Shown one piece after another: positions 16,308-28,886 of a DNA stretch of 32,000 bases. Position 1 is the stretch's first letter, and every line of letters begins with the position of its first letter. The notes below the pieces were generated by a model that did not search any database, had not been told where the DNA came from, and saw only the letters and a program-made list of their open reading frames with translations. Both the position numbers and the translations under genes were made by a program. Source of the DNA: Cuniculiplasma divulgatum. Lineage in GTDB: Archaea > Thermoplasmatota > Thermoplasmata > Thermoplasmatales > Thermoplasmataceae. The DNA is taken from NCBI RefSeq assembly GCF_900083515.1, contig NZ_LT671858.1, forward strand, positions 150,001 through 182,000, written 5' to 3'.

Positions 16308-16480
16308 CATTCTTCCATCTTTACTATTTAATCATTCAAAATTCATATTGATTTGAAAGTAGAAGAGTTTCTCTCAAAAAGCTTTTCACCAGCTTAGAAA
16401 AACAATATGAAATAATTCCGAATTCTTTCTAATAATTACAAATCAAAGATTTTTTATTTTTGTGTAAAGTACAATAGAAA

Positions 16481-16492
16481 TGGGCCCGACCG
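16481..16492. repeat. 12-nt exact copy (tgggcccgaccg) of the 3' end of tRNA-Val at 28815-28826; candidate att remnant and island boundary
   Basis: Direct comparison of the two sites. The copy is followed by cgagccc, which equals the other acceptor-stem strand of the same tRNA (28880-28886). It lies in the 330-bp intergenic gap between the TDT transporter and the GNAT gene. Confidence 0.5.
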
Positions 16493-16638
16493 AGCCCGTT
16501 TAAACTTTTAAGCAAATCCTGTAATATTAGAGATAGGTAGAGTCCCATTTACAACTGTAAGCAAGTCTTCTTTTGTATGAGTAACATGGTGTCCATTAAA
16601 TGAACATATGAATTTGGCCCAGAAGAATTTTCTATAAA

Positions 16639-17124
16639 TTATGATTCGTATTTTTTTTCCATTATAAAATCGCTTCCATCAGTATCCTCAACCTTGAATC
16701 CGTTCTTATAATAGAACGAAAATCCCACAGAATTTTGTCTGTGAACATATAGTCTGCATTCCAGAATACCTTTTTTCTTCATAATTTTCTCTGCCTCTAA
16801 CAGTAATGTTTTTCCAATCTTCTTGTGCGTGTATTCCGGTTTAAGATATAAGCGAAGTAATTCAGCTTTATTAGCAATAATCTTCAATTCAATAAATCCA
16901 ATTAACGTCGAATCTGCAAAAGCTCCGAGGAATAATATATCAAGGTTAGATTGAGATCTTACTATTTCATTTAGCAGTTTTTCCTTAGAATATTTCTCCC
17001 TTATCCAACTCTCGATATATTCCTCACTGTATATGCCTGCGTAAGTCCATTTCCATGATTCTCTAGCAACTTCAATCAGAGTTTCTAGATCCTCAATAGA
17101 TAATTTCCTAATTTCTATGGACAT
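16639..17124 (-). CDS. GNAT-family N-acetyltransferase
   Basis: 161 aa. It has an acetyl-CoA-binding-like segment (HKKIGKTLLLEAEKIMKKKG) and a C-terminal YYKNGF motif. It overlaps the upstream MFS gene by 17 nt. Confidence 0.85.
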   Translation of the reverse strand: MSIEIRKLSIEDLETLIEVARESWKWTYAGIYSEEYIESWIREKYSKEKLLNEIVRSQSNLDILFLGAFADSTLIGFIELKIIANKAELLRLYLKPEYTHKKIGKTLLLEAEKIMKKKGILECRLYVHRQNSVGFSFYYKNGFKVEDTDGSDFIMEKKYES

Positions 17125-18313
17125 GGGTAATTGTTCGCCTCCAAATAATTATTAATATTATTGCTAGTGAAAAGGTTGAAATTAAGAAAAATGTATTATG
17201 ATAGCCAGTAAACTGCACCAAAATTCCGGTTATTGGTGCAGACAAAAATGTTAAGCCAGTAGCAAGGCTATTATAATAACCTTGAATTGTTCCCGTTATC
17301 TCTTCAGGAACATTATTTTGAATTCCGGAGAAAATTATAATTTCACTAACCCCAATAGATATCCCAATTATAAACATAGGCAGAAGAACGTATATAAATT
17401 GAGTAATGTAACTTAGTGCTATAAGCATTACCGCCAATACAGCTATTGACCAAAAGACTCTGTTCAATCTCGGAAATCCTTCCTTTCTTTCTAAAAAGGA
17501 TCCTATGGAAATCCCTAACGTAAGTATAAGATATATAACAGAGAGGTACAACGCTGGTAGTTGGAATATTCTAACCACCATTACAGTAGTCAAAACTCCA
17601 AACATACCGAATATAAAATTAACCAGAAATCCCTCTGTAAAAAGGACTAAAACTATTGGAGATTTTCTTATAAAGTTCAAAGGGTCACTTAACTTTCTAG
17701 CACCAGCCTTTAGCTGGTGTCTTTTAGGTTCTTCGTAAACTTTGATGAGAGAAATTGGGATTGTTGAGGTCAGGTAAATAAGTAATACAAATATTAATGT
17801 AAACGTTACTCCTGTTGAAATTAAAAAGCCTACTAAAATGTAACCTAATCCTTCTGAAATGTTGTATAAAATATTTGAAAAAGCCCTGTATCTTTTTACT
17901 TTCTCTCCTTCTTTTAAGAATTTCTTTATCCAGACTGCTCTAACGGAGTTAATAAAATCAGATGTCAGTCCAACCGAAAATGCGAACAAGAATAGAAAGA
18001 TAATAAGGAACGCTTTTTGGTTAAAGAGAAAAGTGAATAATAAAGGCACCACTGAACAAGCCCGAATAAGAGAAAACAGGATTGCTATAAATTTTTTATG
18101 TATACTATTATCCACAAAAGAGCCCACAGCAAAGCTCAAAAATAATGGTAACGTAACAAGTCCGTCGGCAATTCCAGTATAGACCGGGGAATGCGTGACC
18201 GTAAAAGAGACCCACAGAATGCTAATATAAAAGATGGCAGTAGCTATTCGAGATAGAGAAATACTTGAAGCAGTAAACATATAGTTTCTAATATCGCGGT
18301 TCATATTAGTCAT
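17108..18313 (-). CDS. MFS_3 / EntS-like efflux transporter (the 'transmembrane secretion effector' type)
   Basis: 401 aa with about 12 TM helices. The N-terminus (RNYMFTASSISLSRIATAIFYISILWVSFTVTHSPVYTGIADGLVTLP) resembles the EntS/MFS_3 pattern. It lies 20 nt downstream of the SagB-like pair. Confidence 0.65.
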   Translation of the reverse strand: MTNMNRDIRNYMFTASSISLSRIATAIFYISILWVSFTVTHSPVYTGIADGLVTLPLFLSFAVGSFVDNSIHKKFIAILFSLIRACSVVPLLFTFLFNQKAFLIIFLFLFAFSVGLTSDFINSVRAVWIKKFLKEGEKVKRYRAFSNILYNISEGLGYILVGFLISTGVTFTLIFVLLIYLTSTIPISLIKVYEEPKRHQLKAGARKLSDPLNFIRKSPIVLVLFTEGFLVNFIFGMFGVLTTVMVVRIFQLPALYLSVIYLILTLGISIGSFLERKEGFPRLNRVFWSIAVLAVMLIALSYITQFIYVLLPMFIIGISIGVSEIIIFSGIQNNVPEEITGTIQGYYNSLATGLTFLSAPITGILVQFTGYHNTFFLISTFSLAIILIIIWRRTITHVHRN

Positions 18314-18332
18314 AAATAATTTACATTAAATT

Positions 18333-19442
18333 TTAAATCTCATTAACCCATTGCAAGTTTAATATGTTGCTGGAGGTGTTGTCCATAAGTAAAGAAGGTG
18401 AAGGTTTTTTTCCGACCGTTATCGTATACAATACAAATTGTTTGTTCCTTTTCAAACTAAGCATCTTGTCAAATGAAGAATCTCTAGTTGCGGGTGTTGG
18501 TAACGAACCAAACCCCATTCGCTCCGCTTCAAATATCAATCTCTGAGCTATTCTTCCCGCTTCTATGAATATGTTTCTAAGTGCCCTTTCATGCCTATAT
18601 CTCCATTGGTATTGTTCAAAATCAGTAACGAAAAGGATAGTAAAATTAGCTGTTTTTGGTGCTTGATGCCACCATAAATTATGTATCATCTCCTCTCTAA
18701 AATCTCCAGACTTTAATTCGGAAAGGAAATGGTCCTTTACGTCATAAAGGTATATTCCATTTTGTAAGTGATTAATATTATAGGCAATCACGTAAAAATC
18801 AAATTCTGTTCCATGGCTTGCAAAATAATCTAAAGGGTCTTCATAACTGAGGTTTCTAACGTGCCTAACTCTTGAAAGAGCATTCCATAAAATACTAGAA
18901 AAATCCTCTAGTTTCATTGATTCATTTTGAAAAATTCTGGTCGTTCTTCTGCCTAAGAGTACATTTTTTAAGTTTACCTCTTCTAGACCTACATTTTTAG
19001 GTATTGGCATTTTAATTTTTGTAAATTCGAGGGATTCGACAATCCTATCCGGCAAACTATTTTCACTTAAATATGCATTTATCAAACCTCTTCTTAGGTC
19101 TCCTGAATAATCTTCATCGTCAATGAATTTCACCTTTTTAGACCACACATAATAAATTAATGAATCGTACCATCCTCTTTTAAACCAATGTAAGATGCTA
19201 TCCAAGTTCTCTGTTTCTGGCTCCTCGTTTGTATTAATTAAAAACCCTATTTCTCTTAAATATGAAAAAATGGTTAAATCAGAATTTCCCATTTGATTAA
19301 ATAAAAGAAATTCTATGAATGCGTCTAATTTAATTTTTATTCTCTTATAAAGTAAAGGATTTGAAATTATAAGTCTAGATGGTTCAGTAAAATTATCAAT
19401 AGTTGTCAATTCTTTCCATTTAATATTTTCAAGTGTTTTCAA
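18333..19442 (-). CDS. SagB/ThcOx-type nitroreductase-fold dehydrogenase, paralogue B, with an extra N-terminal ~150-aa domain
   Basis: LLGRRTTRIF (the RRSxR FMN-phosphate motif) and C-terminal IEAGRIAQRLIFEAERMGFGSLPTPA, typical of the nitroreductase fold. The PSxG motif is degenerate (ASHGTEF). The start is TTG at 19442, with GAGGAG 7 nt upstream. Confidence 0.75.
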   Translation of the reverse strand: MKTLENIKWKELTTIDNFTEPSRLIISNPLLYKRIKIKLDAFIEFLLFNQMGNSDLTIFSYLREIGFLINTNEEPETENLDSILHWFKRGWYDSLIYYVWSKKVKFIDDEDYSGDLRRGLINAYLSENSLPDRIVESLEFTKIKMPIPKNVGLEEVNLKNVLLGRRTTRIFQNESMKLEDFSSILWNALSRVRHVRNLSYEDPLDYFASHGTEFDFYVIAYNINHLQNGIYLYDVKDHFLSELKSGDFREEMIHNLWWHQAPKTANFTILFVTDFEQYQWRYRHERALRNIFIEAGRIAQRLIFEAERMGFGSLPTPATRDSSFDKMLSLKRNKQFVLYTITVGKKPSPSLLMDNTSSNILNLQWVNEI

Positions 19443-19455
19443 AACTTCATCTCCT

Positions 19456-20517
19456 CTAGTTTCCTATAGCCATAGATGCCATATAGCCTTCTTTCAATGG
19501 GCTTAATCCTAGAAATTTTTCTATCCCTTCATCATTAGCTGAATATTGAACTAAATACTTATATCCTAACTTTTCACATATGATTTCAGTTGTCGCCGCT
19601 AAATGTCCCACGTCCATATGTATAGTTCGGAAAGTCCTAGGTTCTCGATATCTATACATATTTCTCTCAAATATACTGGTAAATATTAAGATTAAATCAA
19701 CATGAAAATCGGGTCGCACATATGTTGTAGGAAAAAGAAGTCTTAGGTCATCTGGGTCTGTTCCACCAATTTTTATTTGTTCAAGTTTGGAATCTTTAAC
19801 AGAAATGTGGTACCACCCAGACTCCAAACCTTCCACATTTATCGCTACAATGTATGTCTCAGTAGGATGTCTGGACCCCCCGGATGGACTGGTTCTCAAT
19901 ATTAGTGGGTCTCCATTCCAATAAACTCTTAAGCTCCCAACTCTTGTATAACCAAGTGATGCCATCGTAAGCAAATCGGCAAAATTGACACATTTTTGCT
20001 TAGAGGTATTAGTTTCTCGTATTTTCACCTCTGTAGCTTTGGGGATGTCATACGAAACCTGCGAATTATATTCCTTATATCTGTTAGAATCAATTTCTTG
20101 ACTACTATAATTAATCATCCGTTGTTTTGCAACATAATCCTCGATAAAGGGATAATCATAAGACACTAGATGATAAAGTAACGCCATATACCAATTATGT
20201 TTATACCAATTATCAAACTCTAAACCAAACACTTCATTAGAACCATCCATTTCTTGTTTAACTTCCAGTAAAAGGTCAGTTGCCATAAGTTTTTTCAGTC
20301 CAAGATGAATAAGCTCATTTTTGATTCCATATTTCTCATAAAAGAAATCTAGAATATCTCCCACAGTATGTGGAATTTTGCAATATAAAAGTATTGCCAA
20401 AGTTGGAGAACTTACCTTATAATTTCTTTTAGTGACCCAATTCCTAACAATCCATAGATCCCCAACAATCCTATCTGGTGGATATATTAGAATTTCGGAA
20501 ACTGATTTAACCTTCAT
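19456..20517 (-). CDS. SagB/ThcOx-type nitroreductase-fold dehydrogenase, paralogue A, with an N-terminal PqqD/RRE-like domain
   Basis: LRTSPSGGSRHPTETYIVA (the SagB signature R..PS.G...P.E.Y) and C-terminal MDVGHLAATTEIICEKLGY...MASMAIG. The N-terminal ~90 aa (WIVRNWVTKRNYKVSSPTLAILLYCKIPHTVGDILDFFYEKYGIKNELIHLGLKKLMATDLLLEV) reads like a PqqD-type peptide-binding wHTH. Confidence 0.8.
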   Translation of the reverse strand: MKVKSVSEILIYPPDRIVGDLWIVRNWVTKRNYKVSSPTLAILLYCKIPHTVGDILDFFYEKYGIKNELIHLGLKKLMATDLLLEVKQEMDGSNEVFGLEFDNWYKHNWYMALLYHLVSYDYPFIEDYVAKQRMINYSSQEIDSNRYKEYNSQVSYDIPKATEVKIRETNTSKQKCVNFADLLTMASLGYTRVGSLRVYWNGDPLILRTSPSGGSRHPTETYIVAINVEGLESGWYHISVKDSKLEQIKIGGTDPDDLRLLFPTTYVRPDFHVDLILIFTSIFERNMYRYREPRTFRTIHMDVGHLAATTEIICEKLGYKYLVQYSANDEGIEKFLGLSPLKEGYMASMAIGN

Positions 20518-20575
20518 TAATTATAATTACTATTACAATGTAATAAGCTTATGTAGTAACAAAAACTAAATAATC

Positions 20576-20583
20576 TTTAAATA
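20576..20583 (+). promoter_or_regulatory. Archaeal TATA box (tttaaata) for the 23-codon ORF
   Basis: It matches the TTTAWATA consensus. It lies about 35 nt upstream of the ATG at 20617, so a transcript start would fall just before the GGAGGTGA at 20605-20612. Confidence 0.45.
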
Positions 20584-20616
20584 AGATTATTCAAATTGAA
20601 ATTTGGAGGTGAAAAA

Positions 20617-20688
20617 ATGACTGATGCGGATTTTGTGGTTGAGGAAGTAAGTTTGGACATGCCAGCCGCCAAGCAAAATGGGGGATAA
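20617..20688 (+). CDS. Unannotated small ORF, 23 aa (MTDAEFVVEEVSLDMPAAKQNGG); candidate precursor peptide
   Basis: My own translation. GGAGGTGA (a full anti-SD complement) sits at 20605-20612, 4 nt before the ATG. The stop is TAA immediately followed by an out-of-frame TGA (taatga). Three oligo-T runs follow within 45 nt. The ORF is divergent from the SagB-like operon, 100 nt away. Confidence 0.55.
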   Translation: MTDADFVVEEVSLDMPAAKQNGG

Positions 20689-20703
20689 TGAAACAATAAT
20701 CAC

Positions 20704-20730
20704 TATTTTTTATACTTTTTTATTTTTTTG
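20704..20730 (+). terminator. Oligo-T archaeal terminator-like tract (T6, T6, T7)
   Basis: The sequence tattttttatacttttttattttttt lies directly downstream of the 23-codon ORF. Confidence 0.5.
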
Positions 20731-20852
20731 AAAATCAAGAAATGGAGTAAGTAAACATTTTTTAAGATATGATTTTTCCGAGTCGGACTATCATACTTGT
20801 GTCAGTAATGGGGTTTTATTTTCTCATAAAAATAGGGACCAAACCACCCTTA

Positions 20853-20883
20853 TTCTTGTTCAAACTTCTTTTGAAGAAGTTTG
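20853..20883. repeat. Palindromic motif copy 0 (ttcttgt-t-caaacttctt-ttg-aagaagtttg)
   Basis: 10-bp perfect inverted arms with a 3-nt spacer, preceded by ttcttgt. The architecture is the same as at 21324 and 21361. Confidence 0.7.
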
Positions 20884-21032
20884 TCGCAAAGGAAAGCCCG
20901 TATTATTAAATCTGAAATTTTAAGGGCTTTCCTGCGAACCCCCTCCTCCGCCGAGCGTAGCAGGTCTGAACGAAGTGAAGACCCGAAGTGTCCCGAAGGG
21001 ACACGTAGCCCACACGTGCATAGCACGGGTGG

Positions 21033-21050
21033 GTGCGAAGCACAGGGCAC
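21033..21050. repeat. Left arm of the 18-bp perfect long-range inverted repeat (gtgcgaagcacagggcac)
   Basis: Its reverse complement, gtgccctgtgcttcgcac, occurs at 21279-21296. Confidence 0.85.
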
Positions 21051-21278
21051 GGGGGGTCGGTGGACAGCCCGAAGGGCTGGACAAATCAGGATAATAGGCT
21101 GTTGCGAAGCAACAAGTGAACGCCGAAGGCGTACACGTGCCTATACCTGATTAGACCTCCGAGACGAGCGAAGGCAAAAAGAGGGGGGGAATTTGTGAGC
21201 GAAGCGAACAAAGGAGGGGTGAATTTTTGCCGTAGCGAAAGCCAAATCCTCCGTTCAGGAGGTTGGCGTGTCGCAGAG

Positions 21279-21296
21279 TGCCCTGTGCTTCGCACT
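21279..21296. repeat. Right arm of the 18-bp perfect long-range inverted repeat
   Basis: Exact reverse complement of 21033-21050. The arms are 228 nt apart. Confidence 0.85.
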
Positions 21297-21323
21297 TGTG
21301 CGTAGCGAGGCGGGGGCTTATTG

Positions 21324-21350
21324 CTCTTGTGGACTTCTCACGAGAAGTCC
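21324..21350. repeat. Palindromic motif copy 1 (ctcttgt-ggacttctc-acg-gagaagtcc)
   Basis: 9-bp perfect inverted arms with a 3-nt spacer, preceded by ctcttgt. Confidence 0.75.
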
Positions 21351-21360
21351 GTAATTATAG

Positions 21361-21387
21361 TTCTTGTAGACTTCTTTCAAGAAGTCT
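21361..21387. repeat. Palindromic motif copy 2 (ttcttgt-agacttctt-tca-aagaagtct)
   Basis: 9-bp perfect inverted arms with a 3-nt spacer, preceded by ttcttgt. It lies 37 bp from copy 1. Confidence 0.75.
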
Positions 21388-21461
21388 GAAATAAAAAGTA
21401 AAAGGAAATAAGGAGGGCATTAAGCGCCCCGTGTATTGACACACGGGGGCACGTGTGGCTC

Positions 21462-21641
21462 TCACGTGCTAAGCTTACGTGGTCGTTTAGCTGGTCTTTT
21501 ACTAACGTAATGTCTGTTGGATACTCTGCTGGCTGATAGTGTGAGCCATTTCCTGCACTTCGGACAATACCAATTCTCCGTTTCCTCTAACTGACATAAT
21601 GGCGTTCCGCAAAACATACACTTTATTCTGTATTCCTTCAT
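21462..21641 (-). CDS. Small zinc-ribbon protein, 59 aa (below the ORF-track cutoff)
   Basis: My own translation: MKEYRIKCMFCGTPLCQLEETENWYCPKCRKWLTLSASRVSNRHYVSKRPAKRPRKLST. It has a CxxC...CxxC arrangement plus a basic tail, and an ATGA overlap with the upstream gene's stop. Confidence 0.55.
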   Translation of the reverse strand: MKEYRIKCMFCGTPLCQLEETENWYCPKCRKWLTLSASRVSNRHYVSKRPAKRPRKLST

Positions 21642-21856
21642 TTCATTGCCTCCTTCCGCATTGCTTCATATTGCTCTGTCTTGGCCTTTAACTGCCGTTC
21701 TAACTGCTCTATTTTCGTGTGTGGGTCTACATATCCTTTATTCTCCTTATATTGCGATATGAGAAAATTCAGGACACGTGATAACTCCTTGTGCTTTGTG
21801 AGTTCCTCCACGAATTCCACGTTTTCTGGCTCTATATGAAATGTAGTTATGTGCAT
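21638..21856 (-). CDS. Small protein, possibly ribbon-helix-helix plus coiled coil
   Basis: The ORF track gives 21638..21859 with a GTG start; the ATG at 21856 overlaps the upstream stop (TGATG). The N-terminus ITTFHIEPENVEFVEELTK...SRVLNFLISQY has a beta-alpha-alpha pattern. Confidence 0.5.
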   Translation of the reverse strand: MHITTFHIEPENVEFVEELTKHKELSRVLNFLISQYKENKGYVDPHTKIEQLERQLKAKTEQYEAMRKEAMK

Positions 21857-22194
21857 CACTTACTCACCTCTGCCTTGTGCAATATGATTGCCTTGTAGTA
21901 GCTGTTCCCTGATTTCCTGCTAATGAGTTTATCCAATACGAAAAAGGTATCAGGTTTTAGATAGCCTAAATCGTATTGCTCGTTCAATACTGATGAGCCA
22001 TAGAAAGATACAATCTGTCCGTCAGAAGTCCGTTTTGCGTAATAGATATATAGCTCTGCCTCCTGACCTTCCCTTTCTATTTTCGTTTTTTCTACACTTG
22101 AGAGTTGTAGCTCCTCTCCTATGAGAACGTCCTTTTCCACTTGTAGCATACCTTCGGTATGCTTTTGTTCGTCTGTGTTTTCTTGTTCAGCCAT
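21856..22194 (-). CDS. Hypothetical protein, 112 aa
   Basis: ORF in the co-directional chain, coupled to the downstream gene. No motif recognised. Confidence 0.5.
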   Translation of the reverse strand: MAEQENTDEQKHTEGMLQVEKDVLIGEELQLSSVEKTKIEREGQEAELYIYYAKRTSDGQIVSFYGSSVLNEQYDLGYLKPDTFFVLDKLISRKSGNSYYKAIILHKAEVSK

Positions 22195-22453
22195 TCAATC
22201 ACAATAATATTGGGTAGAAAAGATATAATAAGGTATCTGCAATGAATATTGAAGCAAAGTAAAAGATAGTCATATTACTTGGAATATAGCTGAAAAGAAA
22301 TGCACAATGTAAGATATGGATATATATTTATATCTTGATGTTCATATATTATATACGGGCATATTCTCGGTTATATAACTTGGAATAATTAAAAGGGAAT
22401 GGTGAGCAAAATATAAAAGCACCACGAAAACAATAGATTTTTTGTTGTTGTTT

Positions 22454-22618
22454 CTATCCGTTCGTCTGTGCTGGTTTCTCTGTTCGCAATATAGCGTTTA
22501 GACGCTTTTTTTGCTGTTCTTCCTCCTCACACATAGGGCAACACTCCTTGAGCCTTGAGCCGATAAGGAATAGATGGCCTCTTTGGTGTATGTGTATTAG
22601 AGGGTATATTTCTTGCAT
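22454..22618 (-). CDS. Small Cys/His-rich protein, 54 aa (below the ORF-track cutoff)
   Basis: My own translation: MQEIYPLIHIHQRGHLFLIGSRLKECCPMCEEEEQQKKRLNAILRTEKPAQTNG. GGTGG lies 5 nt upstream of the ATG. Confidence 0.4.
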   Translation of the reverse strand: MQEIYPLIHIHQRGHLFLIGSRLKECCPMCEEEEQQKKRLNAILRTEKPAQTNG

Positions 22619-22705
22619 TTTGCCACCATAAATATAACGAAAAATAGGATATAAACTTTATCGGGGAAACGTGGCGGTGGCAAAGCCACGCTCCCTAAGA
22701 AATCG

Positions 22706-22834
22706 TTATTTTCGCAACAACGAGCTTAAAAAGAGGGTGGTGTGCATACATTCTACGCATAGCCCTGAATTATTGACCGCTGTTATCCCTGCTTCCTCGT
22801 CATCTATCCTGACCTTGCATATTCTACACTTCAT
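22706..22834 (-). CDS. Small zinc-ribbon protein, 42 aa (below the ORF-track cutoff)
   Basis: My own translation: MKCRICKVRIDDEEAGITAVNNSGLCVECMHTTLFLSSLLRK (CxxC-19-CxxC). The ATG lies 1 nt after the upstream stop. The same 11-nt junction, atgaaatgaag, precedes the other zinc-ribbon ORF at 21636-21646. Confidence 0.5.
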   Translation of the reverse strand: MKCRICKVRIDDEEAGITAVNNSGLCVECMHTTLFLSSLLRK

Positions 22835-22835
22835 T

Positions 22836-23192
22836 TCATCGCCTTAACAAATGTCCTAAGCGTTCCTTATCGTATTCTTGCATTTCCTCTTTGCTGGCTC
22901 TTTCCAATACGACAACGTCCTCTTTTCCGTATTTTGCGTATGAGAACTTAATGTATTGTGCCTCTGCACAACTGCCGTCCCGATATACAGGATAATATAT
23001 GCCTATTCCCTCCCTCTCGCCATAGCGTATCTCGGAAAATACAGAAGGAGTAAAAAGCTCCTTTTCAATCGTAATCACTGACCCTGCTCCAAAAGATAAC
23101 AAAGTGTGTAATTCATTTTCCGTCCGCCATTTCATCGTTTTTATGTCGTTTTTTCTCTCCTTCCCATTTCTTTCAGCTTCCATTTTTCTCAC
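22836..23192 (-). CDS. Hypothetical protein, 118 aa
   Basis: ORF in the co-directional chain. No motif recognised. Confidence 0.5.
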   Translation of the reverse strand: MRKMEAERNGKERKNDIKTMKWRTENELHTLLSFGAGSVITIEKELFTPSVFSEIRYGEREGIGIYYPVYRDGSCAEAQYIKFSYAKYGKEDVVVLERASKEEMQEYDKERLGHLLRR

Positions 23193-23340
23193 CTATAAAG
23201 TGTGAAATCCTTGCGTGATACCTTCCTTTTTTGTGTTCCTTAACGTGCAAGACTACGTGCTTTCTCCTTCCCTCCTCGAACCATTCTATTGTTATGAGAA
23301 AACTAATCAGTTTTCCCTTCGGTGCATTGGGTATTTTCAT
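23173..23340 (-). CDS. Hypothetical small basic protein, 55 aa (below the ORF-track cutoff)
   Basis: My own translation: MKIPNAPKGKLISFLITIEWFEEGRRKHVVLHVKEHKKGRYHARISHFIGEKNGS. It overlaps the start of the 118-aa ORF by 20 nt. Confidence 0.35.
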   Translation of the reverse strand: MKIPNAPKGKLISFLITIEWFEEGRRKHVVLHVKEHKKGRYHARISHFIGEKNGS

Positions 23341-23373
23341 ACTCTCACTTATTATATTTGAAAAGATAGATAT

Positions 23374-23643
23374 TTATAGATTTACCTCCATTTCCTCTGT
23401 CTTAAGAACTACAATAATTCTGATGAAATATGAGCATACAGCTATTGCAATGAAAGACCAAAGAAAAGTAATTCCAATTAATTCAATCCACATTCCTGTA
23501 ATAGACGCTGGGCTATTCGTTGTAGCGTCCTGCACGGATACACGAACAATAATCATTAGGAAAGCCAGAAAATATGTAAAGAAAACTGCAAAAATAGAGA
23601 TAATAAGCTTAAGCCACGCAATCTCTTTTTTTTCTGATTTCAA
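23374..23643 (-). CDS. Small membrane protein (2-3 TM helices)
   Basis: Two or three strongly hydrophobic segments. The TTG start overlaps the upstream stop (TTGA). Confidence 0.45.
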   Translation of the reverse strand: MKSEKKEIAWLKLIISIFAVFFTYFLAFLMIIVRVSVQDATTNSPASITGMWIELIGITFLWSFIAIAVCSYFIRIIVVLKTEEMEVNL

Positions 23644-23927
23644 AAGATGGCAATTTCCTCGCCTCCCTCGTCAATACGGATTTTCGGTTTCCTAAATAGA
23701 CGATATTCTATCTCTACCCTACTTCCTGATTTCCTGCCTATTACTGCACTATTGGGGTGTTCATATTTGATTTGTGCCAATTCCTGTCTGAATTCACGAT
23801 ACATATTTTGTTGCATTGCCATAACCGATAATACAGGATTGTGTCCGTATTCTGCGTTCCTTGCCCTCTTTTTTAGCTCTCGTAATTCATTCACATTAAC
23901 GGCTTCCATTTCCATTATCTCGCTCAT
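23640..23927 (-). CDS. Hypothetical protein, 95 aa
   Basis: ORF in the chain, with an ATGA overlap with the upstream small ORF. Confidence 0.5.
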   Translation of the reverse strand: MSEIMEMEAVNVNELRELKKRARNAEYGHNPVLSVMAMQQNMYREFRQELAQIKYEHPNSAVIGRKSGSRVEIEYRLFRKPKIRIDEGGEEIAIF

Positions 23928-24234: not shown

Positions 24235-24935
24235 TCATTATCACCTCCTTGCGTGAGCTTCGCTCTTTCTTCGGGGGTCGTCCCGCTCTTTGCTTTCAGC
24301 TTCTCTAACTCAGTCTGATATTCTCGAATTTTCTCATTAGCCAATTTCCTTCCCTCCTCTGTTGTTGCTTGAGCATACTTCTGTTGCCATAAATTCAGTA
24401 ATCGTGCCAATTCCTCTTTAGTGTGTATCATTACAGGCTCTCTTTCTGCCGTTTCGTTGCCTGGCTCTTCTTCTTTTGATTTAAATTTTTTCTCGTATTT
24501 TTTCCTCGCTCTATCCTCTGGTGAAGTCCAATATGTTCTTGTAAGCAAAGCGTGGATTGGTGGATATAAGTCAAAATACCAAACCACGTCAATAATTAAT
24601 AAACTAATACTCATAGAACTTTGCAATATCGGGTTTTCCAGAGATACCCACGAAAAAGAATAAAGCCCTGTAAAAGAAAAAGCGTAGACCATCGCTACAA
24701 TACCTAAAACTTCCAAAAAAATCATAATTACAAACCAGATAATAATGTCAATAAAAGCGATGGCAAAAGAAAAAATGAGTGGGTAAAAGAGCCAATTCGG
24801 AACGAATGTGTATTGTGGTAATGTGTTCCACGGAACTTGTTGGAAAAAGATAGGAAAGTTAAAAAATATGAACAATAAGGATAGAATGATAAGCCTATGT
24901 TTATAGTTAAAATTCTGCTTCCCCACGATATTCAT
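24231..24935 (-). CDS. Membrane protein (about 4 TM helices) with a C-terminal charged coiled-coil tail
   Basis: Hydrophobic N-terminal 140 aa and a Lys/Glu-rich helical C-terminus. There is an ATGA overlap with the ATPase gene. Confidence 0.6.
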   Translation of the reverse strand: MNIVGKQNFNYKHRLIILSLLFIFFNFPIFFQQVPWNTLPQYTFVPNWLFYPLIFSFAIAFIDIIIWFVIMIFLEVLGIVAMVYAFSFTGLYSFSWVSLENPILQSSMSISLLIIDVVWYFDLYPPIHALLTRTYWTSPEDRARKKYEKKFKSKEEEPGNETAEREPVMIHTKEELARLLNLWQQKYAQATTEEGRKLANEKIREYQTELEKLKAKSGTTPEERAKLTQGGDNE

Positions 24936-26791
24936 AGCTTTTCCTCCTGTAATTCGGGCAAAGTAAGCACTTTTACGTCTGGGTATTTCTCAACATACTT
25001 CTTTTTCTCACTCTGGTTTGGGACGATGATAATTGTTTCCTTGCCCTGTTTCTGATAATAGGCTATCCTGTCCTTGATGTCCGAGATATCGTTTTTAAGC
25101 CCTGTTTCAATCTCAAAAACATATTTATCGCTTTCAATATCTGCCGTGCTAATACCCGATGGTTGTATTTTCGGATTAATTCCCTTATGATAAATCACGT
25201 CCGCCGTTCGATTCACAAGATAAGTATGAAGCCCAGATGGATTTTCTCCGTTTCGGAAATAGATTTTTGTGTCTTTGATGTCAGGTTTATCATTTACAAA
25301 TTTTACGTTATTAACTTCCTTCACGTCTATTTTCTCTAATTTTAAAAGCATCGGCAATGTCTTACGATATAAAGTTAAACGATAATTCTCTCCCTCCCCA
25401 CCATATCTCTCGGCAAAACGCTTTCCCAAATCCTGTATATTTCCTGCCTGTGATAGAAATTCAAAGATAACTTTTTGATAGTCTATATCCTCCTTCCTCT
25501 CTTCCTCGGAACTCCCTTTGCCTTTGCTGTCATTATTGTTTATTGTAATCTCCTTCACGGAATATAACTTCGGTTTTGGGTTCTGCAATCTATATATTAT
25601 CACATATTGGTCGGGTCTATCCTGCCCGATGTCCGTAAACTCGTAAGTAGAGAGCATTTGAGCTACAACTTGGTGGAATAAATCACTAATGGCACTTACC
25701 TCGTCTAAATTCTCCTTGCCAGATTGTTTGAAGCTGAATTGTGTTTTACAGTTATCTAATGCCTGTCCTCGCAAATCCGCTATTCTTTGAGAAGCTAGTA
25801 TCATACTACCTTTTGCACCAATGAGAGCGGACATCTCTGGTATTATAGAAAACCCTGATTTTGTCAATAAATGAGCCTCGTCTATTACGAATAAAGTATT
25901 TTGCCTCTTGTTCCATACCTCTTTAGAGAGTTGATTAAGCAAGAACTCTGCATAGAATTTGAAAAATTGCATATCTACCTCGGTGTTCTCTGAACCCTCA
26001 AAATCAACTACACAAGTATTGGGTAATTCATAATTCAAAACATTTTCCCGATATATGATTGGCAAATTGTTCTGTATGAACTTTAATGCTCCTTTGGTAA
26101 TGCTTTCACTTTCGGATTTTAGCATATCCTCCAATATCTTTTTGAAATCTTGCCAATTTTTGCTCTTTTCCGCTATCTGCTTTACCTGACCTCTGACTGT
26201 TGAAGCGGTTATGCCCTGCATACTCGCGCTGATTGGAAATGCCGTTATAAACGCCCTTGCCACTGCCTCTGGACTTATAAAAACATTAGGAACTGCTTTG
26301 TGGATATAGAGTGTAGGATAGCCTAACCTTGTGTAATCATCTGTTGCCTTAAACATAAAAATTATTTTCTTTTCTTCTGATAAGGATTGGATTAATTTAT
26401 AGACCAATTGACTTTTACCTGAACGGGAAGCCCCCATAACTGCTATAATGCGATTATGTCCCTTTCTTTCGAGATATTCGTTTATGTCCATTTTCCCTTC
26501 ATATATTGTTTCTCTGTCCTTCTGCCAGCCCCTCCCGCTCTCGTCCTCGTGCCACGTTAGTTTTACATCTGCAATAGCTAAAATCTCATTCTGTATTTTT
26601 TGCGGGCTCACAAACTGCGCTCTCCATAGAATACTCAAAACAATACAAAAAATAATCCAACTCGTTATTACTGCCCCTACCAAAGACACGGGTATTAGAA
26701 GTATAGCCACGAGTAAAGCGAATAAGCCTGCCACACTCACAACTGCGACACGTCCGTGTTTACGTCTGGGGCGGCTAAATGCTTCCATCAT
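24932..26791 (-). CDS. Membrane-anchored FtsK/HerA/TraG-like P-loop ATPase with C-terminal wHTH-like and nuclease-like regions
   Basis: Two N-terminal TM helices (VAVVSVAGLFALLVAILLIPVSLVGAVITSWIIFCIVLSILW). Walker A is GASRSGKS, which I verified at nt 26411-26434 on the reverse strand. Walker B is LFVIDEAHLL. The C-terminal ADIESDKYVFEIETGLK looks like a PD-(D/E)xK motif. GGAGGTGA lies upstream of the ATG. Confidence 0.7.
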   Translation of the reverse strand: MMEAFSRPRRKHGRVAVVSVAGLFALLVAILLIPVSLVGAVITSWIIFCIVLSILWRAQFVSPQKIQNEILAIADVKLTWHEDESGRGWQKDRETIYEGKMDINEYLERKGHNRIIAVMGASRSGKSQLVYKLIQSLSEEKKIIFMFKATDDYTRLGYPTLYIHKAVPNVFISPEAVARAFITAFPISASMQGITASTVRGQVKQIAEKSKNWQDFKKILEDMLKSESESITKGALKFIQNNLPIIYRENVLNYELPNTCVVDFEGSENTEVDMQFFKFYAEFLLNQLSKEVWNKRQNTLFVIDEAHLLTKSGFSIIPEMSALIGAKGSMILASQRIADLRGQALDNCKTQFSFKQSGKENLDEVSAISDLFHQVVAQMLSTYEFTDIGQDRPDQYVIIYRLQNPKPKLYSVKEITINNNDSKGKGSSEEERKEDIDYQKVIFEFLSQAGNIQDLGKRFAERYGGEGENYRLTLYRKTLPMLLKLEKIDVKEVNNVKFVNDKPDIKDTKIYFRNGENPSGLHTYLVNRTADVIYHKGINPKIQPSGISTADIESDKYVFEIETGLKNDISDIKDRIAYYQKQGKETIIIVPNQSEKKKYVEKYPDVKVLTLPELQEEKL

Positions 26792-26793
26792 AA

Positions 26794-27006: not shown

Positions 27007-27040
27007 ACTTATCTATTTGTAATTCAATGAGAGAATATAT

Positions 27041-27484
27041 ATGGTTAATACCATTACTATACCTATGAGCATATATTTATCGTGGGTAGAATACTATTCA
27101 TGTGCTTACTGCGAGGAAATCATCAATACTATGCTATCTGCTGATAAGACAATGAGTCAATATAAGATTACTAAACTTGTAAAAAGTAAAATGAACTCAA
27201 AGACCGCAATAAAACATATTGAGGATTTAATTGACGTGGGGATTATAATTGATTATGGTGGTCCTGCTCTTCGGCTTTTGGAAGATATAAAATCAGTATT
27301 TTTAGAAACATCTTATGAACCATACGGGAAACCTGCTCGGAAAGGCATATTAGATTTTTCAAATGAAAACGATGTTGAATTATTGTCAGAAATTATAAAA
27401 GCTCAACACAAGAAACGAAAAAAAAGCTATGCTTTATGGTTTGATTACGCATTCTTATATGAAAAGTGTATGAAAAAGGACTAA
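27041..27484 (+). CDS. Putative winged-helix DNA-binding protein, 147 aa
   Basis: The segment MSQYKITKLVKSKMNSKTAIKHIEDLIDVGIIIDYG is HTH-like. The gene is divergent from the leftward operon, with a 34-bp gap, and is the only plus-strand gene in the element. Confidence 0.4.
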   Translation: MVNTITIPMSIYLSWVEYYSCAYCEEIINTMLSADKTMSQYKITKLVKSKMNSKTAIKHIEDLIDVGIIIDYGGPALRLLEDIKSVFLETSYEPYGKPARKGILDFSNENDVELLSEIIKAQHKKRKKSYALWFDYAFLYEKCMKKD

Positions 27485-28764
27485 AACCTCAACCTCATTA
27501 CCGCTTTTCCGTTCGGCAATACTGCTTCAAAGTCGTATCCATCGCTGATATATTGCTCTATTTCGTTTACAGGTATGACCTTCTGCTTCGCTCCGTTGTC
27601 GCTCATCGCACCTGCTACCTTGTCCCTTAACAACTGCTGAAAGTCCTCATTGCTCACGCTTGAAAGGTCTAACTTGTCTATCTCCTCCTGCTTGTAGCCC
27701 ACTGCCGATAAGAGCTGTTGCTGTAAGAATAGCTTTGCGTTGTCCTCTGAAACATCGGATATTCTCGTTTCAAGGAATTTTAAACACTTACGATAACTTT
27801 CCCTCATCTCCTCTATCATATCTGGCGGTAGCCTCTTATTTGTGCTGTATCTTGCCTCTATATCGCCCTTATGACCCATAATAAACTGCCTCCACGGGTG
27901 CGATATTAGACCTTTGCTCTCTGCGATGTCTAACGCCGTGCTGAAATATGCCCTTAAAACGTAAGGTCTCATCTTTAGACCTGCTGTGGTTATTGCCTCC
28001 CTGATATCCCTCGTTACCAACATAGTCCGCATAAAATCATTCTTCTTTGTGCCTCTTACATCAAATTGCAACAGTGGGGATTCATAAGTTAGCTCCTCTC
28101 CGTTCTTTTTTCTCTCCTCCAAATATTCCTTGATATACGTTATACCCTCCTCTCCAATGAAAGAAAAGTATTGGTTTCTTGCCTTGCTTAGCCTTGTCTT
28201 TACCATTATTGTGGCTGGAATCTTGGTGAATTCGATTTCATCTGAAATCTTAAGCTCTTTAATATCGCCTAATCGTAATCCATCTGTGCCCTCGTAATTA
28301 CCCAATGTTTCGGGTCTAAAGCCTGAAAATGCCATAATAGAGATTGATACCCTGCCTCTTGATGTCGCTTTTCTTAAAAGCCTGCTCAATTCTTCCTTGC
28401 TTGGCACTCTTTCGTTGTCTAACGTTGGACTTTCGTTTTCATTTGCTATATTTACATCTAACTTTATATCGATTCCATTAAATTTAGCCCAAGACCGTAA
28501 AACCTTTTTATATCTTACAATATATGACCCTGCTTTCCCCTCTTTCTCTAATCTTCTAACAAAATCCAAGAAATTATCTCTAAACTCTAACTTTTCCATA
28601 TCGGTTAGAAGTTGTTCAGGCGTAGTTTTCTCCAATTCACAATAGTAGCCTAAAGTCCTTCGGTAAACGGTTGCTGTAAGTATTGATTTAGCCTTTAGAT
28701 TCTCAAACCATCTTCTTATTTTCGGGTTTTCCATTAGGTTGTCATACTTCGGTTTATAGGTCAT
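27481..28764 (-). CDS. Tyrosine recombinase / integrase
   Basis: Catalytic-motif candidates are R in AFSGFRPETL, HPWR (HxxR), GHKGD and Y in EARYS. The gene is intact and starts 51 nt from the tRNA 3' end. Confidence 0.85.
   Translation of the reverse strand: MTYKPKYDNLMENPKIRRWFENLKAKSILTATVYRRTLGYYCELEKTTPEQLLTDMEKLEFRDNFLDFVRRLEKEGKAGSYIVRYKKVLRSWAKFNGIDIKLDVNIANENESPTLDNERVPSKEELSRLLRKATSRGRVSISIMAFSGFRPETLGNYEGTDGLRLGDIKELKISDEIEFTKIPATIMVKTRLSKARNQYFSFIGEEGITYIKEYLEERKKNGEELTYESPLLQFDVRGTKKNDFMRTMLVTRDIREAITTAGLKMRPYVLRAYFSTALDIAESKGLISHPWRQFIMGHKGDIEARYSTNKRLPPDMIEEMRESYRKCLKFLETRISDVSEDNAKLFLQQQLLSAVGYKQEEIDKLDLSSVSNEDFQQLLRDKVAGAMSDNGAKQKVIPVNEIEQYISDGYDFEAVLPNGKAVMRLRF

Positions 28765-28812: not shown

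Positions 28813-28886
<74 letters not shown>

What the first reader, a model, noticed from the sequence alone, without database searches (positions are those of the whole stretch)
16639..20730. Candidate novel RiPP-like cassette: tandem RRE-fused SagB/ThcOx paralogues, EntS-type exporter, GNAT and a divergent 23-aa peptide gene, with no cyclodehydratase
Four tightly packed minus-strand genes form one operon, with gaps of 13 and 20 nt and a 17-nt overlap.
- Paralogue A (19456-20517) is a nitroreductase-fold SagB-type enzyme. Its first ~90 aa read like a PqqD/RRE peptide-binding winged helix.
- Paralogue B (18333-19442) has a comparable N-terminal extension.
- Downstream are an MFS_3/EntS-like efflux pump and a GNAT acetyltransferase. 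Export plus self-protection is the classic pairing in peptide-antibiotic loci such as microcin C, where MccE is a GNAT.
- Exactly 100 nt upstream and divergent is a well-signalled 23-codon ORF.

Known SagB/McbC/ThcOx enzymes oxidise azolines made by a YcaO cyclodehydratase. No YcaO, ThiF-like or radical-SAM gene is present here. The peptide has no Cys, and its only Ser and Thr lie in the acidic N-terminal half. Any chemistry would therefore differ from TOMM/cyanobactin azole formation. The block sits in an accessory context, between a tRNA-fragment repeat and an integrated element.
Basis: partly seen in the sequence, partly recalled or inferred. Interest (0 to 1): 0.85.

Follow-up and report, generated by a model that had tools for sequence, protein, structure and literature searches.

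The report
Archaeal trifolitoxin-like (tiarin) antibiotic gene cluster
This is a small gene cluster for a modified-peptide antibiotic of the recently described trifolitoxin-like "tiarin" family, predicted to poison lysyl-tRNA synthetase; this exact cluster is already listed in a December 2025 preprint, so it is real and interesting but not new.

Summary
Four packed minus-strand genes (two RRE-fused SagB-type flavoenzymes, an MFS exporter, a GNAT) face a divergent 23-codon ORF. Two spacings are off by one.

The RiPP reading is right, but the cassette is not a new kind. It is a tiarin (trifolitoxin-like) cluster.
- Enzyme A matches TfxB and enzyme B matches TfxC, in profile and BLAST tests against the real tfx locus.
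- The peptide MTDADFVVEEVSLDMPAAKQNGG carries the tiarin leader motif and the conserved Gln at the modal spacing. Relatives show only synonymous changes.
- bioRxiv 10.64898/2025.12.02.691738 lists this exact peptide and operon for Cuniculiplasma divulgatum.

Under that paper's model, TfxB/TfxC make a Gln-derived chromophore rather than azoles. That explains the missing YcaO and the lack of Cys. The residue before Gln (Lys) predicts a LysRS inhibitor. The GNAT would acetylate the processed warhead as immunity.

Points I did not find in the papers read:
- The cassette is cargo of a 12.4-kb tRNA-Val integrated plasmid-like element, 99-99.9% identical across Thermoplasmatales genera.
- Its GNAT is Ta0374/"PaiA" (PDB 3K9U), annotated as a spermidine acetyltransferase.

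No chemistry or activity has been shown for this archaeal member.

The parts
20617..20688 (+). Precursor peptide gene (TfxA-like), MTDADFVVEEVSLDMPAAKQNGG. Leader motif FVVEEV is residues 6-11. Lys19 is codon 20671-20673. The Gln20 predicted to be modified is codon 20674-20676.
   Evidence: ORF and Shine-Dalgarno. The identical peptide is listed as a tiarin precursor in Suppl. Data 1 of the preprint. Changes are 8 synonymous / 0 nonsynonymous against L087, and 5 / 0 between L007 and L091. Motif spacing of 9 is the modal value.
20605..20612 (+). Shine-Dalgarno GGAGGTGA, 4 nt upstream of the precursor ATG.
   Evidence: GGAGGTG is conserved upstream of the orthologous ORFs in L007, L087, L090 and L091.
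20706..20729 (+). Three oligo-T tracts just after the precursor stop codon. Likely an archaeal terminator (inferred).
   Evidence: Sequence read.
19456..20517 (-). Enzyme A: TfxB-type RRE-fused SagB/nitroreductase-fold flavoenzyme (Ta0371 equivalent). RRE is about residues 1-85 (nt 20263-20517).
   Evidence: AF2 model pLDDT 82.8. Foldseek hits to ThcOx, McbC, BmdC and RREs. BLASTP to TfxB 1e-29; A-family profile scores 137 bits to TfxB against 28.6 to TfxC.
18333..19442 (-). Enzyme B: TfxC-type SagB/nitroreductase-fold flavoenzyme with a shortened RRE-like N-terminal domain. It has the canonical RRTTR FMN-phosphate motif at residues 164-168.
   Evidence: AF2 model pLDDT 82.3. Foldseek to ThcOx over about 390 columns. 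BLASTP to TfxC 5e-25; B-family profile scores 160 bits to TfxC against 52 to TfxB. hhalign of the N-terminal domains gives probability 86%.
17108..18313 (-). MFS (DHA3/EntS-like) exporter. Functional analogue of the MATE pump TfxD, not a homologue.
   Evidence: No similarity to TfxD. Conserved after B in L007 and L087.
16639..17124 (-). GNAT acetyltransferase, identical to Ta0374/PaiA_THEAC (PDB 3K9U, 3NE7, 3F0A, 3FIX). Predicted immunity enzyme that acetylates the processed warhead.
   Evidence: It overlaps the MFS gene by 17 nt. It is conserved with the cassette in L007 and L087. The role is inferred from TfxH in the preprint.
16481..16492 (+). att-like direct repeat TGGGCCCGACCG, a copy of the tRNA-Val 3' end. 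Left end of the integrated element.
   Evidence: There are only two copies in the window and 0 are expected. Cross-genome homology starts at 16476-16480.
28814..28886 (-). tRNA-Val(GAC), the integration target. It contains the second copy of the repeat at 28815-28826. Right end of the element.
27481..28764 (-). Probable tyrosine recombinase (integrase) of the element.
   Evidence: Weak Pfam Phage_integrase hit: 24.4 bits, E 2.9e-5, below the gathering score. It sits next to the tRNA.
24932..26791 (-). AAA-type ATPase of the element backbone. Probable plasmid replication protein.
   Evidence: 30% identity over 82% of its length to the ATP-binding protein of the 7.6-kb Picrophilus oshimae plasmid NC_016049.1.

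Best explanation
The region is a minimal tiarin (trifolitoxin-like RiPP) biosynthetic gene cluster, carried as cargo on a 12.4-kb plasmid-like element integrated in tRNA-Val.

Proposed mechanism, with each step marked as shown or inferred:
1. The 23-aa precursor is translated. This is supported by purifying selection on the ORF.
2. Its acidic/aliphatic leader motif (D-F-V-V-E-E-V) is bound by the RRE domains of A (TfxB-type) and B (TfxC-type). The fold is shown here; binding is inferred.
3. The two flavoenzymes, probably acting as a heteromer, dehydrogenate and cyclise around Gln20 in K19-Q20-N21. This gives the Gln-derived conjugated heterocycle that defines the family. It is inferred from trifolitoxin, whose mature mass equals the linear core minus H2O minus 6 H. 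The exact chromophore structure is still disputed.
4. The core has no Cys, so no thiazoline and no YcaO are needed.
5. An unidentified protease removes the leader, and the MFS pump exports the product. Both are inferred.
6. In a sensitive neighbour, the peptide enters through an oligopeptide importer. Aminopeptidases trim it to a warhead starting at Lys19, which inhibits lysyl-tRNA synthetase. This comes from the preprint's rule that the residue before the conserved Gln sets the aaRS target. Only ArgRS/TFX has been tested experimentally.
7. In the producer, the GNAT (Ta0374) acetylates the free alpha-amine of any warhead formed inside the cell. This is inferred by analogy to TfxH and MccE.

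The element spreads the cluster between Thermoplasmatales genera living in acid-mine communities.
For: Family membership:
- A matches TfxB and B matches TfxC, reciprocally, against the real tfx locus L093. BLASTP gives 1e-29 and 5e-25. Profiles give 137 and 160 bits, against 29 and 52 bits for the crossed pairs.
- An A-like gene is followed by a B-like gene in nearly all 80 loci found across Bacteria and Archaea. At least 20 of those contigs also appear in the preprint's tiarin list.

Precursor:
- The exact peptide and operon (Nitro_FMN_reductase; Nitro_FMN_reductase; MFS; Spm_actase_Thplmales) are listed for Cuniculiplasma NZ_LT719092.1 in the preprint's supplements.
- Orthologous divergent 23-aa ORFs occur in L087, L090, L007 and L091. 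Core AKQNGG is invariant and, within each pair of closely related loci (window/L087; L007/L091), only synonymous changes are seen.
- The leader-to-Gln spacing of 9 is the modal spacing, seen in 18 of 27 peptides that carry both motifs.

RRE fold:
-.

GNAT:
- It is translationally coupled to the MFS gene and is kept with the cassette in relatives where A is 86% and 54% identical.
- TfxH was shown to acetylate aminopeptidase-processed TFX and to confer resistance (preprint).
- TaPaiA turns over spermidine slowly, 42.6 per min (PMC11863989).

Mobility:
- Window 16476-28888 is 98.9-99.9% identical to segments in T. acidophilum, Cuniculiplasma and other genomes that have different flanks.
- The att repeat is confirmed.
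Against: - No product, mass shift, fluorescence, export, target or immunity has been shown for this or any other archaeal tiarin.
- The rule linking the residue before Gln to the aaRS target is correlative, except for Arg/ArgRS. I found no statement in the preprint that a Lys-type cluster encodes a LysRS.
- The window GNAT shows no detectable sequence similarity to TfxH. It also has a published polyamine-acetylating activity, so its immunity role is by analogy only.
- A lacks the N-terminal RRSxR-type FMN motif that B has. The Pfam match to A starts at profile position 28. A may therefore not be a conventional flavoenzyme.
- No leader protease is encoded in the cassette.
- The residue after Gln is Asn, not the Gly of TFX. 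Asn does occur in 4 published precursors.
- The archaeal uptake and processing route is unknown.
Confidence: 0.82

Rival explanations
1. It is a tiarin-type modified peptide, but not an aaRS-targeting antibiotic. The Gln-derived chromophore peptide would instead serve as a signal, a metal- or redox-active cofactor, or an addiction factor for the mobile element. The MFS pump would be used for secretion and the GNAT for regulation.
For: - Only TFX has a proven target.
- The cluster encodes no resistant aaRS.
- It sits on a mobile element, which suits an addiction or competition module.
- The peptide is unusually short, with very little N-terminal 'bait'.
Against: - Nine published precursors also have Lys before the conserved Gln.
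- In every published cluster that encodes an aaRS, its specificity matches the residue before Gln.
- The exporter-plus-GNAT pairing is the self-protection pattern shown experimentally for TFX.
Confidence: 0.1
2. The GNAT is what it is annotated as: a polyamine (spermidine N1-) acetyltransferase for polyamine homeostasis. On this reading it merely sits next to the RiPP genes, and export alone protects the producer.
For: - NF041158 (Spm_actase_Thplmales) scores 216 bits.
- The sequence is identical to PAIA_THEAC and PDB 3K9U.
- Spermidine turnover has been published.
- There is no sequence similarity to TfxH.
Against: - The gene is on a horizontally transferred element, not in the core genome.
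- It overlaps the exporter gene by 17 nt.
- It travels with the cassette in relatives where A is 86% and 54% identical.
- Its turnover of 42.6 per min is below that of genuine SSATs, according to PMC11863989.
- The NCBIfam model may well have been built from this very protein family.
Confidence: 0.2
3. It is a classical TOMM/LAP-type azole peptide system. The SagB-like enzymes would oxidise azolines made by a YcaO cyclodehydratase encoded elsewhere in the genome.
For: - Both enzymes hit TIGR03605 SagB.
- Their folds resemble ThcOx and McbC.
Against: - The peptide has no Cys. Its only Ser and Thr lie in or before the leader motif. The invariant core AKQNGG has nothing that can be cyclised.
- No YcaO or ThiF gene lies in the element or the window.
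- The element moves between genera as a self-contained unit.
- Orthology is to TfxB/TfxC, which are tied to a Gln modification.
Confidence: 0.02
4. The 23-codon ORF is a chance ORF, and the A/B pair acts on a small molecule or cofactor.
For: - Very short ORFs are common by chance.
- Most genome annotations do not call this one.
Against: - Differences to relatives are 8 of 8 and 5 of 5 synonymous, while the flanking intergenic DNA is only 59-70% identical.
- A strong Shine-Dalgarno is conserved.
- Position and length are conserved in relatives whose enzymes are only 54% identical.
- The ORF matches both published motifs at the modal spacing.
- RRE domains are present on the enzymes.
Confidence: 0.02

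Closest known systems
Trifolitoxin (tfx) cluster of Rhizobium anhuiense T24, and the tiarin family defined from it (Travin et al., bioRxiv 10.64898/2025.12.02.691738)
   Same: - A precursor with an acidic/aliphatic leader motif and a conserved Gln.
- An adjacent TfxB-type then TfxC-type pair of RRE-fused FMN-dehydrogenase-like enzymes, in the same order.
- A dedicated exporter and an associated GNAT.
- This exact Thermoplasmatales peptide and operon are in the paper's supplementary lists.
   Different: - There are no TfxE (YcaO), TfxF (third dehydrogenase) or TfxG (kinase-like) genes, and no Cys or thiazoline. This is one of the barest versions of the pathway.
- The exporter is MFS, not MATE.
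- The GNAT is not detectably similar to TfxH, and it is co-transcribed at the operon end rather than divergent.
- The precursor is divergent from the enzyme genes rather than upstream on the same strand.
- The precursor is the shortest known, at 23 aa.
- The residue before Gln is Lys, which predicts LysRS, rather than Arg, which targets ArgRS.
- The host is an archaeon and the vehicle is an integrated plasmid-like element.
Microcin C (mcc) system: a Trojan-horse aaRS inhibitor with MccE GNAT immunity
   Same: - The logic is the same: a ribosomal peptide is imported, trimmed by aminopeptidases to an aaRS-inhibiting warhead, and the producer is protected by an efflux pump plus a GNAT that acetylates the alpha-amine of the processed warhead.
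   Different: - The chemistry is unrelated. MccB is a ThiF-like adenylyltransferase that makes a peptidyl-nucleotide.
- There is no nitroreductase-fold enzyme and no Gln chromophore.
- The target there is AspRS.
TOMM/LAP and cyanobactin azoline dehydrogenases (SagB, McbC, BcerB, ThcOx)
   Same: - They share the nitroreductase-fold SagB-type domain. ThcOx is the best structural match, including its N-terminal RRE-like domains.
   Different: - Those enzymes oxidise azolines made by a YcaO. Here there is no YcaO and no cyclisable residue in the core.
- Here the enzymes come as a conserved, diverged pair. A and B are 26% identical over the catalytic region.
Cyclodipeptide oxidase AlbA/AlbB
   Same: - It is a nitroreductase-fold flavoenzyme that performs C-alpha/C-beta dehydrogenation of amino-acid residues. 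That is the kind of step proposed for the Gln in trifolitoxin (PMC8816728).
- It gives weak structural hits.
   Different: - It acts on free cyclodipeptides.
- It has no RRE.
- It forms filaments with a small AlbB subunit.

Membership tests
Tiarin (trifolitoxin-like) RiPP biosynthetic gene cluster | A TfxB homologue is present. | tested here: met
   A against TfxB from L093: BLASTP 1.1e-29, 29% identity over 229 aa. The A-family HMM scores 137.3 bits to TfxB, against 28.6 to TfxC.
Tiarin (trifolitoxin-like) RiPP biosynthetic gene cluster | A TfxC homologue is encoded within about 2.7 kb of the TfxB homologue. This is the preprint's selection rule. | tested here: met
   B against TfxC: BLASTP 4.8e-25. 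The B-family HMM scores 160.5 bits to TfxC, against 51.9 to TfxB. B starts 13 nt after A ends. The preprint keys this cluster's entry to TfxC-homologue accession WP_048161557.1; I did not confirm that this accession is protein B.
Tiarin (trifolitoxin-like) RiPP biosynthetic gene cluster | RRE (leader-binding winged-helix) domains on TfxB and TfxC. | tested here: met
   A: the model's residues 1-85 have a beta-sheet plus three helices. Foldseek gives local hits to TbiB1 5v1v (TMt 0.66), lasso B1 6jx3, PqqD 5sxy and CteB 5wgg, and a full-length hit to ThcOx. B is weaker: it aligns to ThcOx over about 390 columns, and its N-terminal profile aligns to A's RRE with probability 86% and one helix missing. 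Peptide binding itself was not tested.
Tiarin (trifolitoxin-like) RiPP biosynthetic gene cluster | A precursor with leader motif #1 (aliphatic/acidic) and core motif #2 containing the conserved Gln. | tested here: met
   FVVEEV is at residues 6-11 and AAKQ at 17-20. The spacing of 9 is the modal value, seen in 18 of 27 peptides that carry both motifs. The exact peptide is in Suppl. Data 1. Purifying selection is seen in relatives.
Tiarin (trifolitoxin-like) RiPP biosynthetic gene cluster | A self-protection gene is present: a GNAT or a resistant aaRS copy, plus an exporter. | tested here: met
   MFS and GNAT are in the same operon. No aaRS is present. This tests presence only; function was not tested.
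Tiarin (trifolitoxin-like) RiPP biosynthetic gene cluster | The mature product carries the Gln-derived fluorophore. | not testable with these tools
   This needs expression, high-resolution MS/NMR and fluorescence measurements.
Tiarin (trifolitoxin-like) RiPP biosynthetic gene cluster | The processed product inhibits the aaRS that matches the residue before Gln (here LysRS). | not testable with these tools
   The preprint shows this experimentally only for TFX and ArgRS.
TOMM / linear azol(in)e peptide cluster | A YcaO cyclodehydratase (with an E1-like partner) is in the cluster, and the core contains Cys/Ser/Thr. | tested here: not met
   No YcaO or ThiF gene is in the window. The invariant core AKQNGG has no Cys, Ser or Thr.
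Spermidine/spermine N1-acetyltransferase (the current annotation of the GNAT) | The sequence reaches the NCBIfam equivalog cutoff, and polyamine is the physiological substrate. | tested here: inconclusive
   NF041158 scores 216.4 bits against a cutoff of 225. The sequence is identical to PaiA_THEAC. In vitro spermidine turnover is 42.6 per min. The physiological substrate cannot be tested here.

The most novel reading that the evidence does not exclude
The most novel reading not excluded has four linked parts.
- This would be the first archaeal peptide antibiotic ('archaeocin') with a predictable intracellular target, LysRS.
- It would be made by the barest tiarin pathway seen among the clusters examined here: one 23-aa peptide plus only TfxB and TfxC.
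- It is carried by a self-transmissible integrated plasmid that has swept almost unchanged through several Thermoplasmatales genera in acid-mine communities, acting as a competition or addiction module.
- The crystallised 'PaiA spermidine acetyltransferase' Ta0374 would really be its immunity enzyme.

I did not see the mobile-element carriage or the Ta0374 link stated in the papers I read.
Probability: 0.4. Interest if true: 0.6.

Novelty: already known. Interest (0 to 1): 0.3.

Why it matters
The family matters because tiarins are a programmable scaffold of Trojan-horse aaRS inhibitors. This archaeal member is attractive for three practical reasons.
- It has only two modifying enzymes and a Cys-free 23-aa precursor. 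That makes it the simplest system in which to reconstitute the family-defining Gln chromophore and settle its structure, which the preprint says is still disputed.
- Its putative immunity enzyme already has crystal structures (3K9U, 3NE7, 3F0A, 3FIX). Docking or co-crystallising the Lys-warhead could be done straight away, and could correct a database annotation (NF041158/PAIA_THEAC).
- The near-identical element in different genera shows very recent inter-genus transfer of an antibiotic cluster among extreme acidophiles.

As a discovery claim it adds little, because the cluster and its peptide are already listed in the December 2025 preprint.

Tried and rejected
- Looking for TfxA in PLSDB plasmids by tblastn found nothing. 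The tfx locus was obtained instead through the protein collection.
- L037 (Rhizobium phaseoli) was first suspected to be the tfx cluster itself. It is a different tiarin cluster with a KQM-type precursor.
- My first strict regular expressions for upstream same-strand precursors missed most loci. They missed the Thermoplasmata ones because those precursors are divergent or start with TTG. Reading both strands found them.
- A generic direct-repeat search did not report the att repeat, which is too short at 12 nt. It was found by eye and confirmed with the DNA search.
- I could not identify the window's host genome from the flanking SLAC1-like protein; there is no exact record. The window is not any of the six genomes, because the flanks differ.
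- Rfam found nothing in the GC-rich hairpin region.
- The phage collection has no relative of the element's ATPase.
- The Filippova 2011 paper on Ta0374 is not held. Its kinetics are cited second-hand from PMC11863989.
- The supplements did not reveal whether any Lys-type tiarin cluster encodes a LysRS.
- A multimer prediction of A + B + peptide was not possible with the tools and caps available.

Full report
**Observation**

- A, 19456-20517, 353 aa.
- B, 18333-19442, 369 aa, TTG start.
- MFS, 17108-18313, 401 aa.
- GNAT, 16639-17124, 161 aa.

The A-B gap is 13 nt and the MFS/GNAT overlap is 17 nt, as stated. The B-MFS gap is 19 nt, not 20. The small ORF is MTDADFVVEEVSLDMPAAKQNGG. Its ATG is at 20617 and its stop ends at 20688, so it lies 99 nt (not 100) from the start of A. 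A GGAGGTGA Shine-Dalgarno sits at 20605-20612, and three oligo-T tracts follow at 20706-20729.

Pfam and NCBIfam confirm the domains. Both enzymes have nitroreductase-fold SagB-type domains; TIGR03605 scores 77.9 bits for A and 80.5 for B against a cutoff of 78.4. The transporter is a DHA3/EntS-like MFS. The fourth gene is a GNAT. No YcaO, ThiF, radical-SAM or aaRS gene was found among the window ORFs I scanned, which were all those of 140 aa or more plus several shorter element ORFs.

**Context**

Protein A is 100% identical in several Thermoplasmatales genomes, including T. acidophilum AL139299, Cuniculiplasma divulgatum LT719092, CP133595 and CP133600. BLASTN of the window against those loci shows that window 16476/16480 to 28886/28888 is shared at 98.9-99.9% nucleotide identity. 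The DNA outside that segment differs between genomes.

The shared segment is bounded on the right by tRNA-Val(GAC) at 28814-28886. A 12-nt direct repeat, TGGGCCCGACCG, marks both ends. It occurs only at 16481-16492 and, inside the tRNA 3' end, at 28815-28826; none is expected by chance.

Next to the tRNA lies a 427-aa protein with a weak tyrosine-recombinase match (24.4 bits, E 2.9e-5). A 619-aa AAA ATPase in the element is 30% identical to a protein of the 7.6-kb Picrophilus oshimae plasmid NC_016049.1. The cassette is therefore cargo of a roughly 12.4-kb integrated plasmid-like element.

**What the enzyme pair is**

A scan of one genome per species with an alignment of A relatives returned 80 loci from Bacteria and Archaea. 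In almost all of them an A-like gene is followed directly by a B-like gene. MFS and GNAT are kept only in the close Thermoplasmata relatives (L007, L087). Elsewhere the pair is joined by ThiF-like enzymes, MATE or ABC exporters, and peptidases.

This two-paralogue architecture recalled the tfxB-tfxC genes of trifolitoxin. [quoted passage not shown] The preprint reports the following:
- TFX inhibits ArgRS after import by YejABEF and trimming by PepN.
[quoted passage not shown] They are proposed to install the family-defining Gln-derived fluorophore.
- 79 tfxBC-containing clusters occur in seven bacterial and two archaeal phyla.
- Precursors of 23-65 aa share a weak acidic/aliphatic leader motif and a conserved Gln.
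- GNATs or extra aaRS copies accompany many of the clusters.
- When an aaRS is encoded, its specificity matches the residue before the conserved Gln.
- The GNAT TfxH acetylates the aminopeptidase-processed warhead and confers resistance.

Its Supplementary Data 1 lists exactly MTDADFVVEEVSLDMPAAKQNGG for Cuniculiplasma divulgatum NZ_LT719092.1. Supplementary Data 2 gives the operon as Nitro_FMN_reductase; Nitro_FMN_reductase; MFS; Spm_actase_Thplmales; RimI. NZ_LT719092.1 is my locus L001, which carries the same element.

**Independent tests of membership**

I fetched the authentic tfx locus through TfxA. Its gene order is TfxH GNAT (divergent), tfxA, TfxB, TfxC, TfxD, TfxE (YcaO), TfxF, TfxG.

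| Query | Best match | BLASTP E | Family profile (bits) | Profile to the other paralogue (bits) |
|---|---|---|---|---|
| A | TfxB | 1e-29 | 137 | 28.6 (TfxC) |
| B | TfxC | 5e-25 | 160 | 52 (TfxB) |

The MFS pump is not homologous to the MATE pump TfxD. The window GNAT shows no detectable similarity to TfxH. Both are therefore functional analogues at most.

Structure predictions:
- The AlphaFold2 model of A (pLDDT 82.8) has an N-terminal beta-sheet plus three helices. Foldseek gives ThcOx as the top full-length hit (E 5e-14), then BmdC and McbC. It also gives separate local hits of the N-terminal domain to leader-binding RREs: TbiB1 5v1v (TMt 0.66), lasso B1 6jx3, PqqD 5sxy and CteB 5wgg.
- B (pLDDT 82.3) aligns to ThcOx over about 390 columns.
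- B's N-terminal profile aligns to A's RRE with 86% probability and lacks one helix.
- A and B are 26% identical over the catalytic part.
- B carries the canonical RRTTR FMN motif. A lacks it, and the Pfam match to A starts at profile position 28. I read this as a hint that the pair works as a heteromer. This is inference only.

**The precursor is a real gene**

- In L087 and L090, where A is 86% identical, the same 23-aa peptide is encoded with 8 synonymous and 0 nonsynonymous changes.
- In L007 and L091, where A is 54-56% identical, a divergent 23-codon ORF at the same position reads MSKKDFEIEEIVLAKPTAKQNGG. It has a TTG start and a GGAGGTG Shine-Dalgarno. The two copies differ by 5 synonymous and 0 nonsynonymous changes.
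- Flanking intergenic DNA is only 59-70% identical.
- The core AKQNGG is invariant.
- The window peptide has the leader-like motif FVVEEV and the core AAKQ, 9 residues apart. That is the modal spacing, seen in 18 of 27 peptides that carry both motifs. Nine published precursors also have Lys before the Gln.
- A more distant Thermoplasmata MAG (L009) has a same-strand precursor ending in LALMQEGGCGDPT.

**Mechanism**

Both are explained if TfxB/TfxC chemistry is directed at Gln rather than at azolines.

For TFX, the mature mass equals the linear core minus H2O minus 6 H. One dehydration is the thiazoline made by the accessory YcaO. Three dehydrogenation equivalents belong to the chromophore. Lethbridge et al. 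(PMC8816728) proposed C-alpha/C-beta oxidation of Gln followed by GFP-like cyclisation. The preprint says this structure needs revision.

By the preprint's rule, Lys19 before Gln20 predicts a LysRS inhibitor. This is my application of their rule. Only Arg/ArgRS has been tested experimentally.

**The GNAT**

The window GNAT is identical to Ta0374/PAIA_THEAC, which has crystal structures 3K9U, 3NE7, 3F0A and 3FIX. It is annotated as a spermidine N1-acetyltransferase and turns over spermidine at 42.6 per min, which PMC11863989 contrasts with genuine SSATs.

Three features make a tiarin-immunity role plausible by analogy with TfxH and MccE, though it is unproven:
- The gene overlaps the exporter gene.
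- It stays with the cassette across diverged relatives.
- It sits on a mobile element.

**Verdict**

The RiPP interpretation is right in kind. The family is known, and this very cluster is already catalogued, so the novelty rating is 'already known'.

Residual value lies in four points:
- the mobile-element carriage;
- the Ta0374 link;
- the divergent gene arrangement and minimal size of the precursor;
- the cluster's suitability as a minimal system for solving the tiarin chromophore chemistry.

I did not see the first two points stated in the papers I read.

Noticed in passing
window 16481-28886: The whole 12.4-kb segment is 98.9-99.9% identical in T. acidophilum, Cuniculiplasma divulgatum and other Thermoplasmatales genomes that have different flanks. 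One of them (L003) has an IS110 insertion. The segment contains a weak tyrosine-recombinase gene, an AAA ATPase, many small ORFs of unknown function and the tiarin cassette. It is bounded by a 12-nt att repeat and tRNA-Val. This indicates very recent transfer between genera.
   Followed up: partly
window 20930-21470 (+): This is a GC-rich (47% against about 35%) non-coding stretch inside the element, with an exceptionally stable predicted fold (z = -10.2). All 7 window copies of [GC]CGAAG[GC] lie here on one strand, including the 3 GCGAAGC motifs, which from memory I recall as a very stable DNA mini-hairpin. There is no Rfam match. The stretch is partly conserved in the related element L087. 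It could be the element's replication origin or a structured RNA.
   Followed up: partly
window 24932-26791 (-): The 619-aa AAA ATPase of the element is 30% identical, over 82% of its length, to the ATP-binding protein of the 7.6-kb Picrophilus oshimae plasmid NC_016049.1. It has no relative in the phage collection. The element backbone therefore looks plasmid-derived.
   Followed up: partly
L087 (ENA metagenome contig k141_899264), whole locus: A related element carries the same cassette at 84% nucleotide identity. Its backbone is far more diverged: the integrase is 72% identical and most other genes are undetectable. tRNA-Val lies at the GNAT end there, rather than at the integrase end. This suggests the cassette is more conserved than its vehicles, or is exchanged between them.
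   Followed up: no
window 798-6367 (-): The host chromosome near the element encodes an Opp/Dpp-type oligopeptide ABC importer: an SBP_bac_5 binding protein, two permeases and two ATPases with oligo_HPY domains. YejABEF, which the preprint describes as the oligopeptide transporter TFX uses for entry, looks to me like a related kind of importer. The proximity is probably coincidental, but it shows that these peptide-scavenging archaea have a plausible Trojan-horse entry route.
   Followed up: no
window 16639-17124 (-): The GNAT is identical to Ta0374 (UniProt PAIA_THEAC; PDB 3K9U, 3NE7, 3F0A, 3FIX). The NCBIfam model NF041158, 'spermidine N(1)-acetyltransferase, Thermoplasmatales', names this family. 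If the tiarin-immunity reading is right, that annotation describes a side activity.
   Followed up: partly
L009 7672-7800; also L012, L025, L033 and others: In about 30 of the 80 related loci, a ThiF/E1-like gene directly follows the TfxC-type gene. It is often followed by a MATE exporter and an S9 peptidase. A Thermoplasmata MAG (L009) has this richer version, with a Met-type, Cys-containing precursor (…LALMQEGGCGDPT). Thermoplasmata therefore carry at least two different tiarin types.
   Followed up: partly
window 18333-19442 against T. acidophilum CAC11516.1 and CAC11517.1: The original T. acidophilum annotation calls B as 319 aa, which cuts off the RRE-like domain. It calls the MFS pump as 368 or 335 aa, against 401 aa in the window. 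Either the annotation is wrong or the exporter has started to decay in that strain.
   Followed up: no
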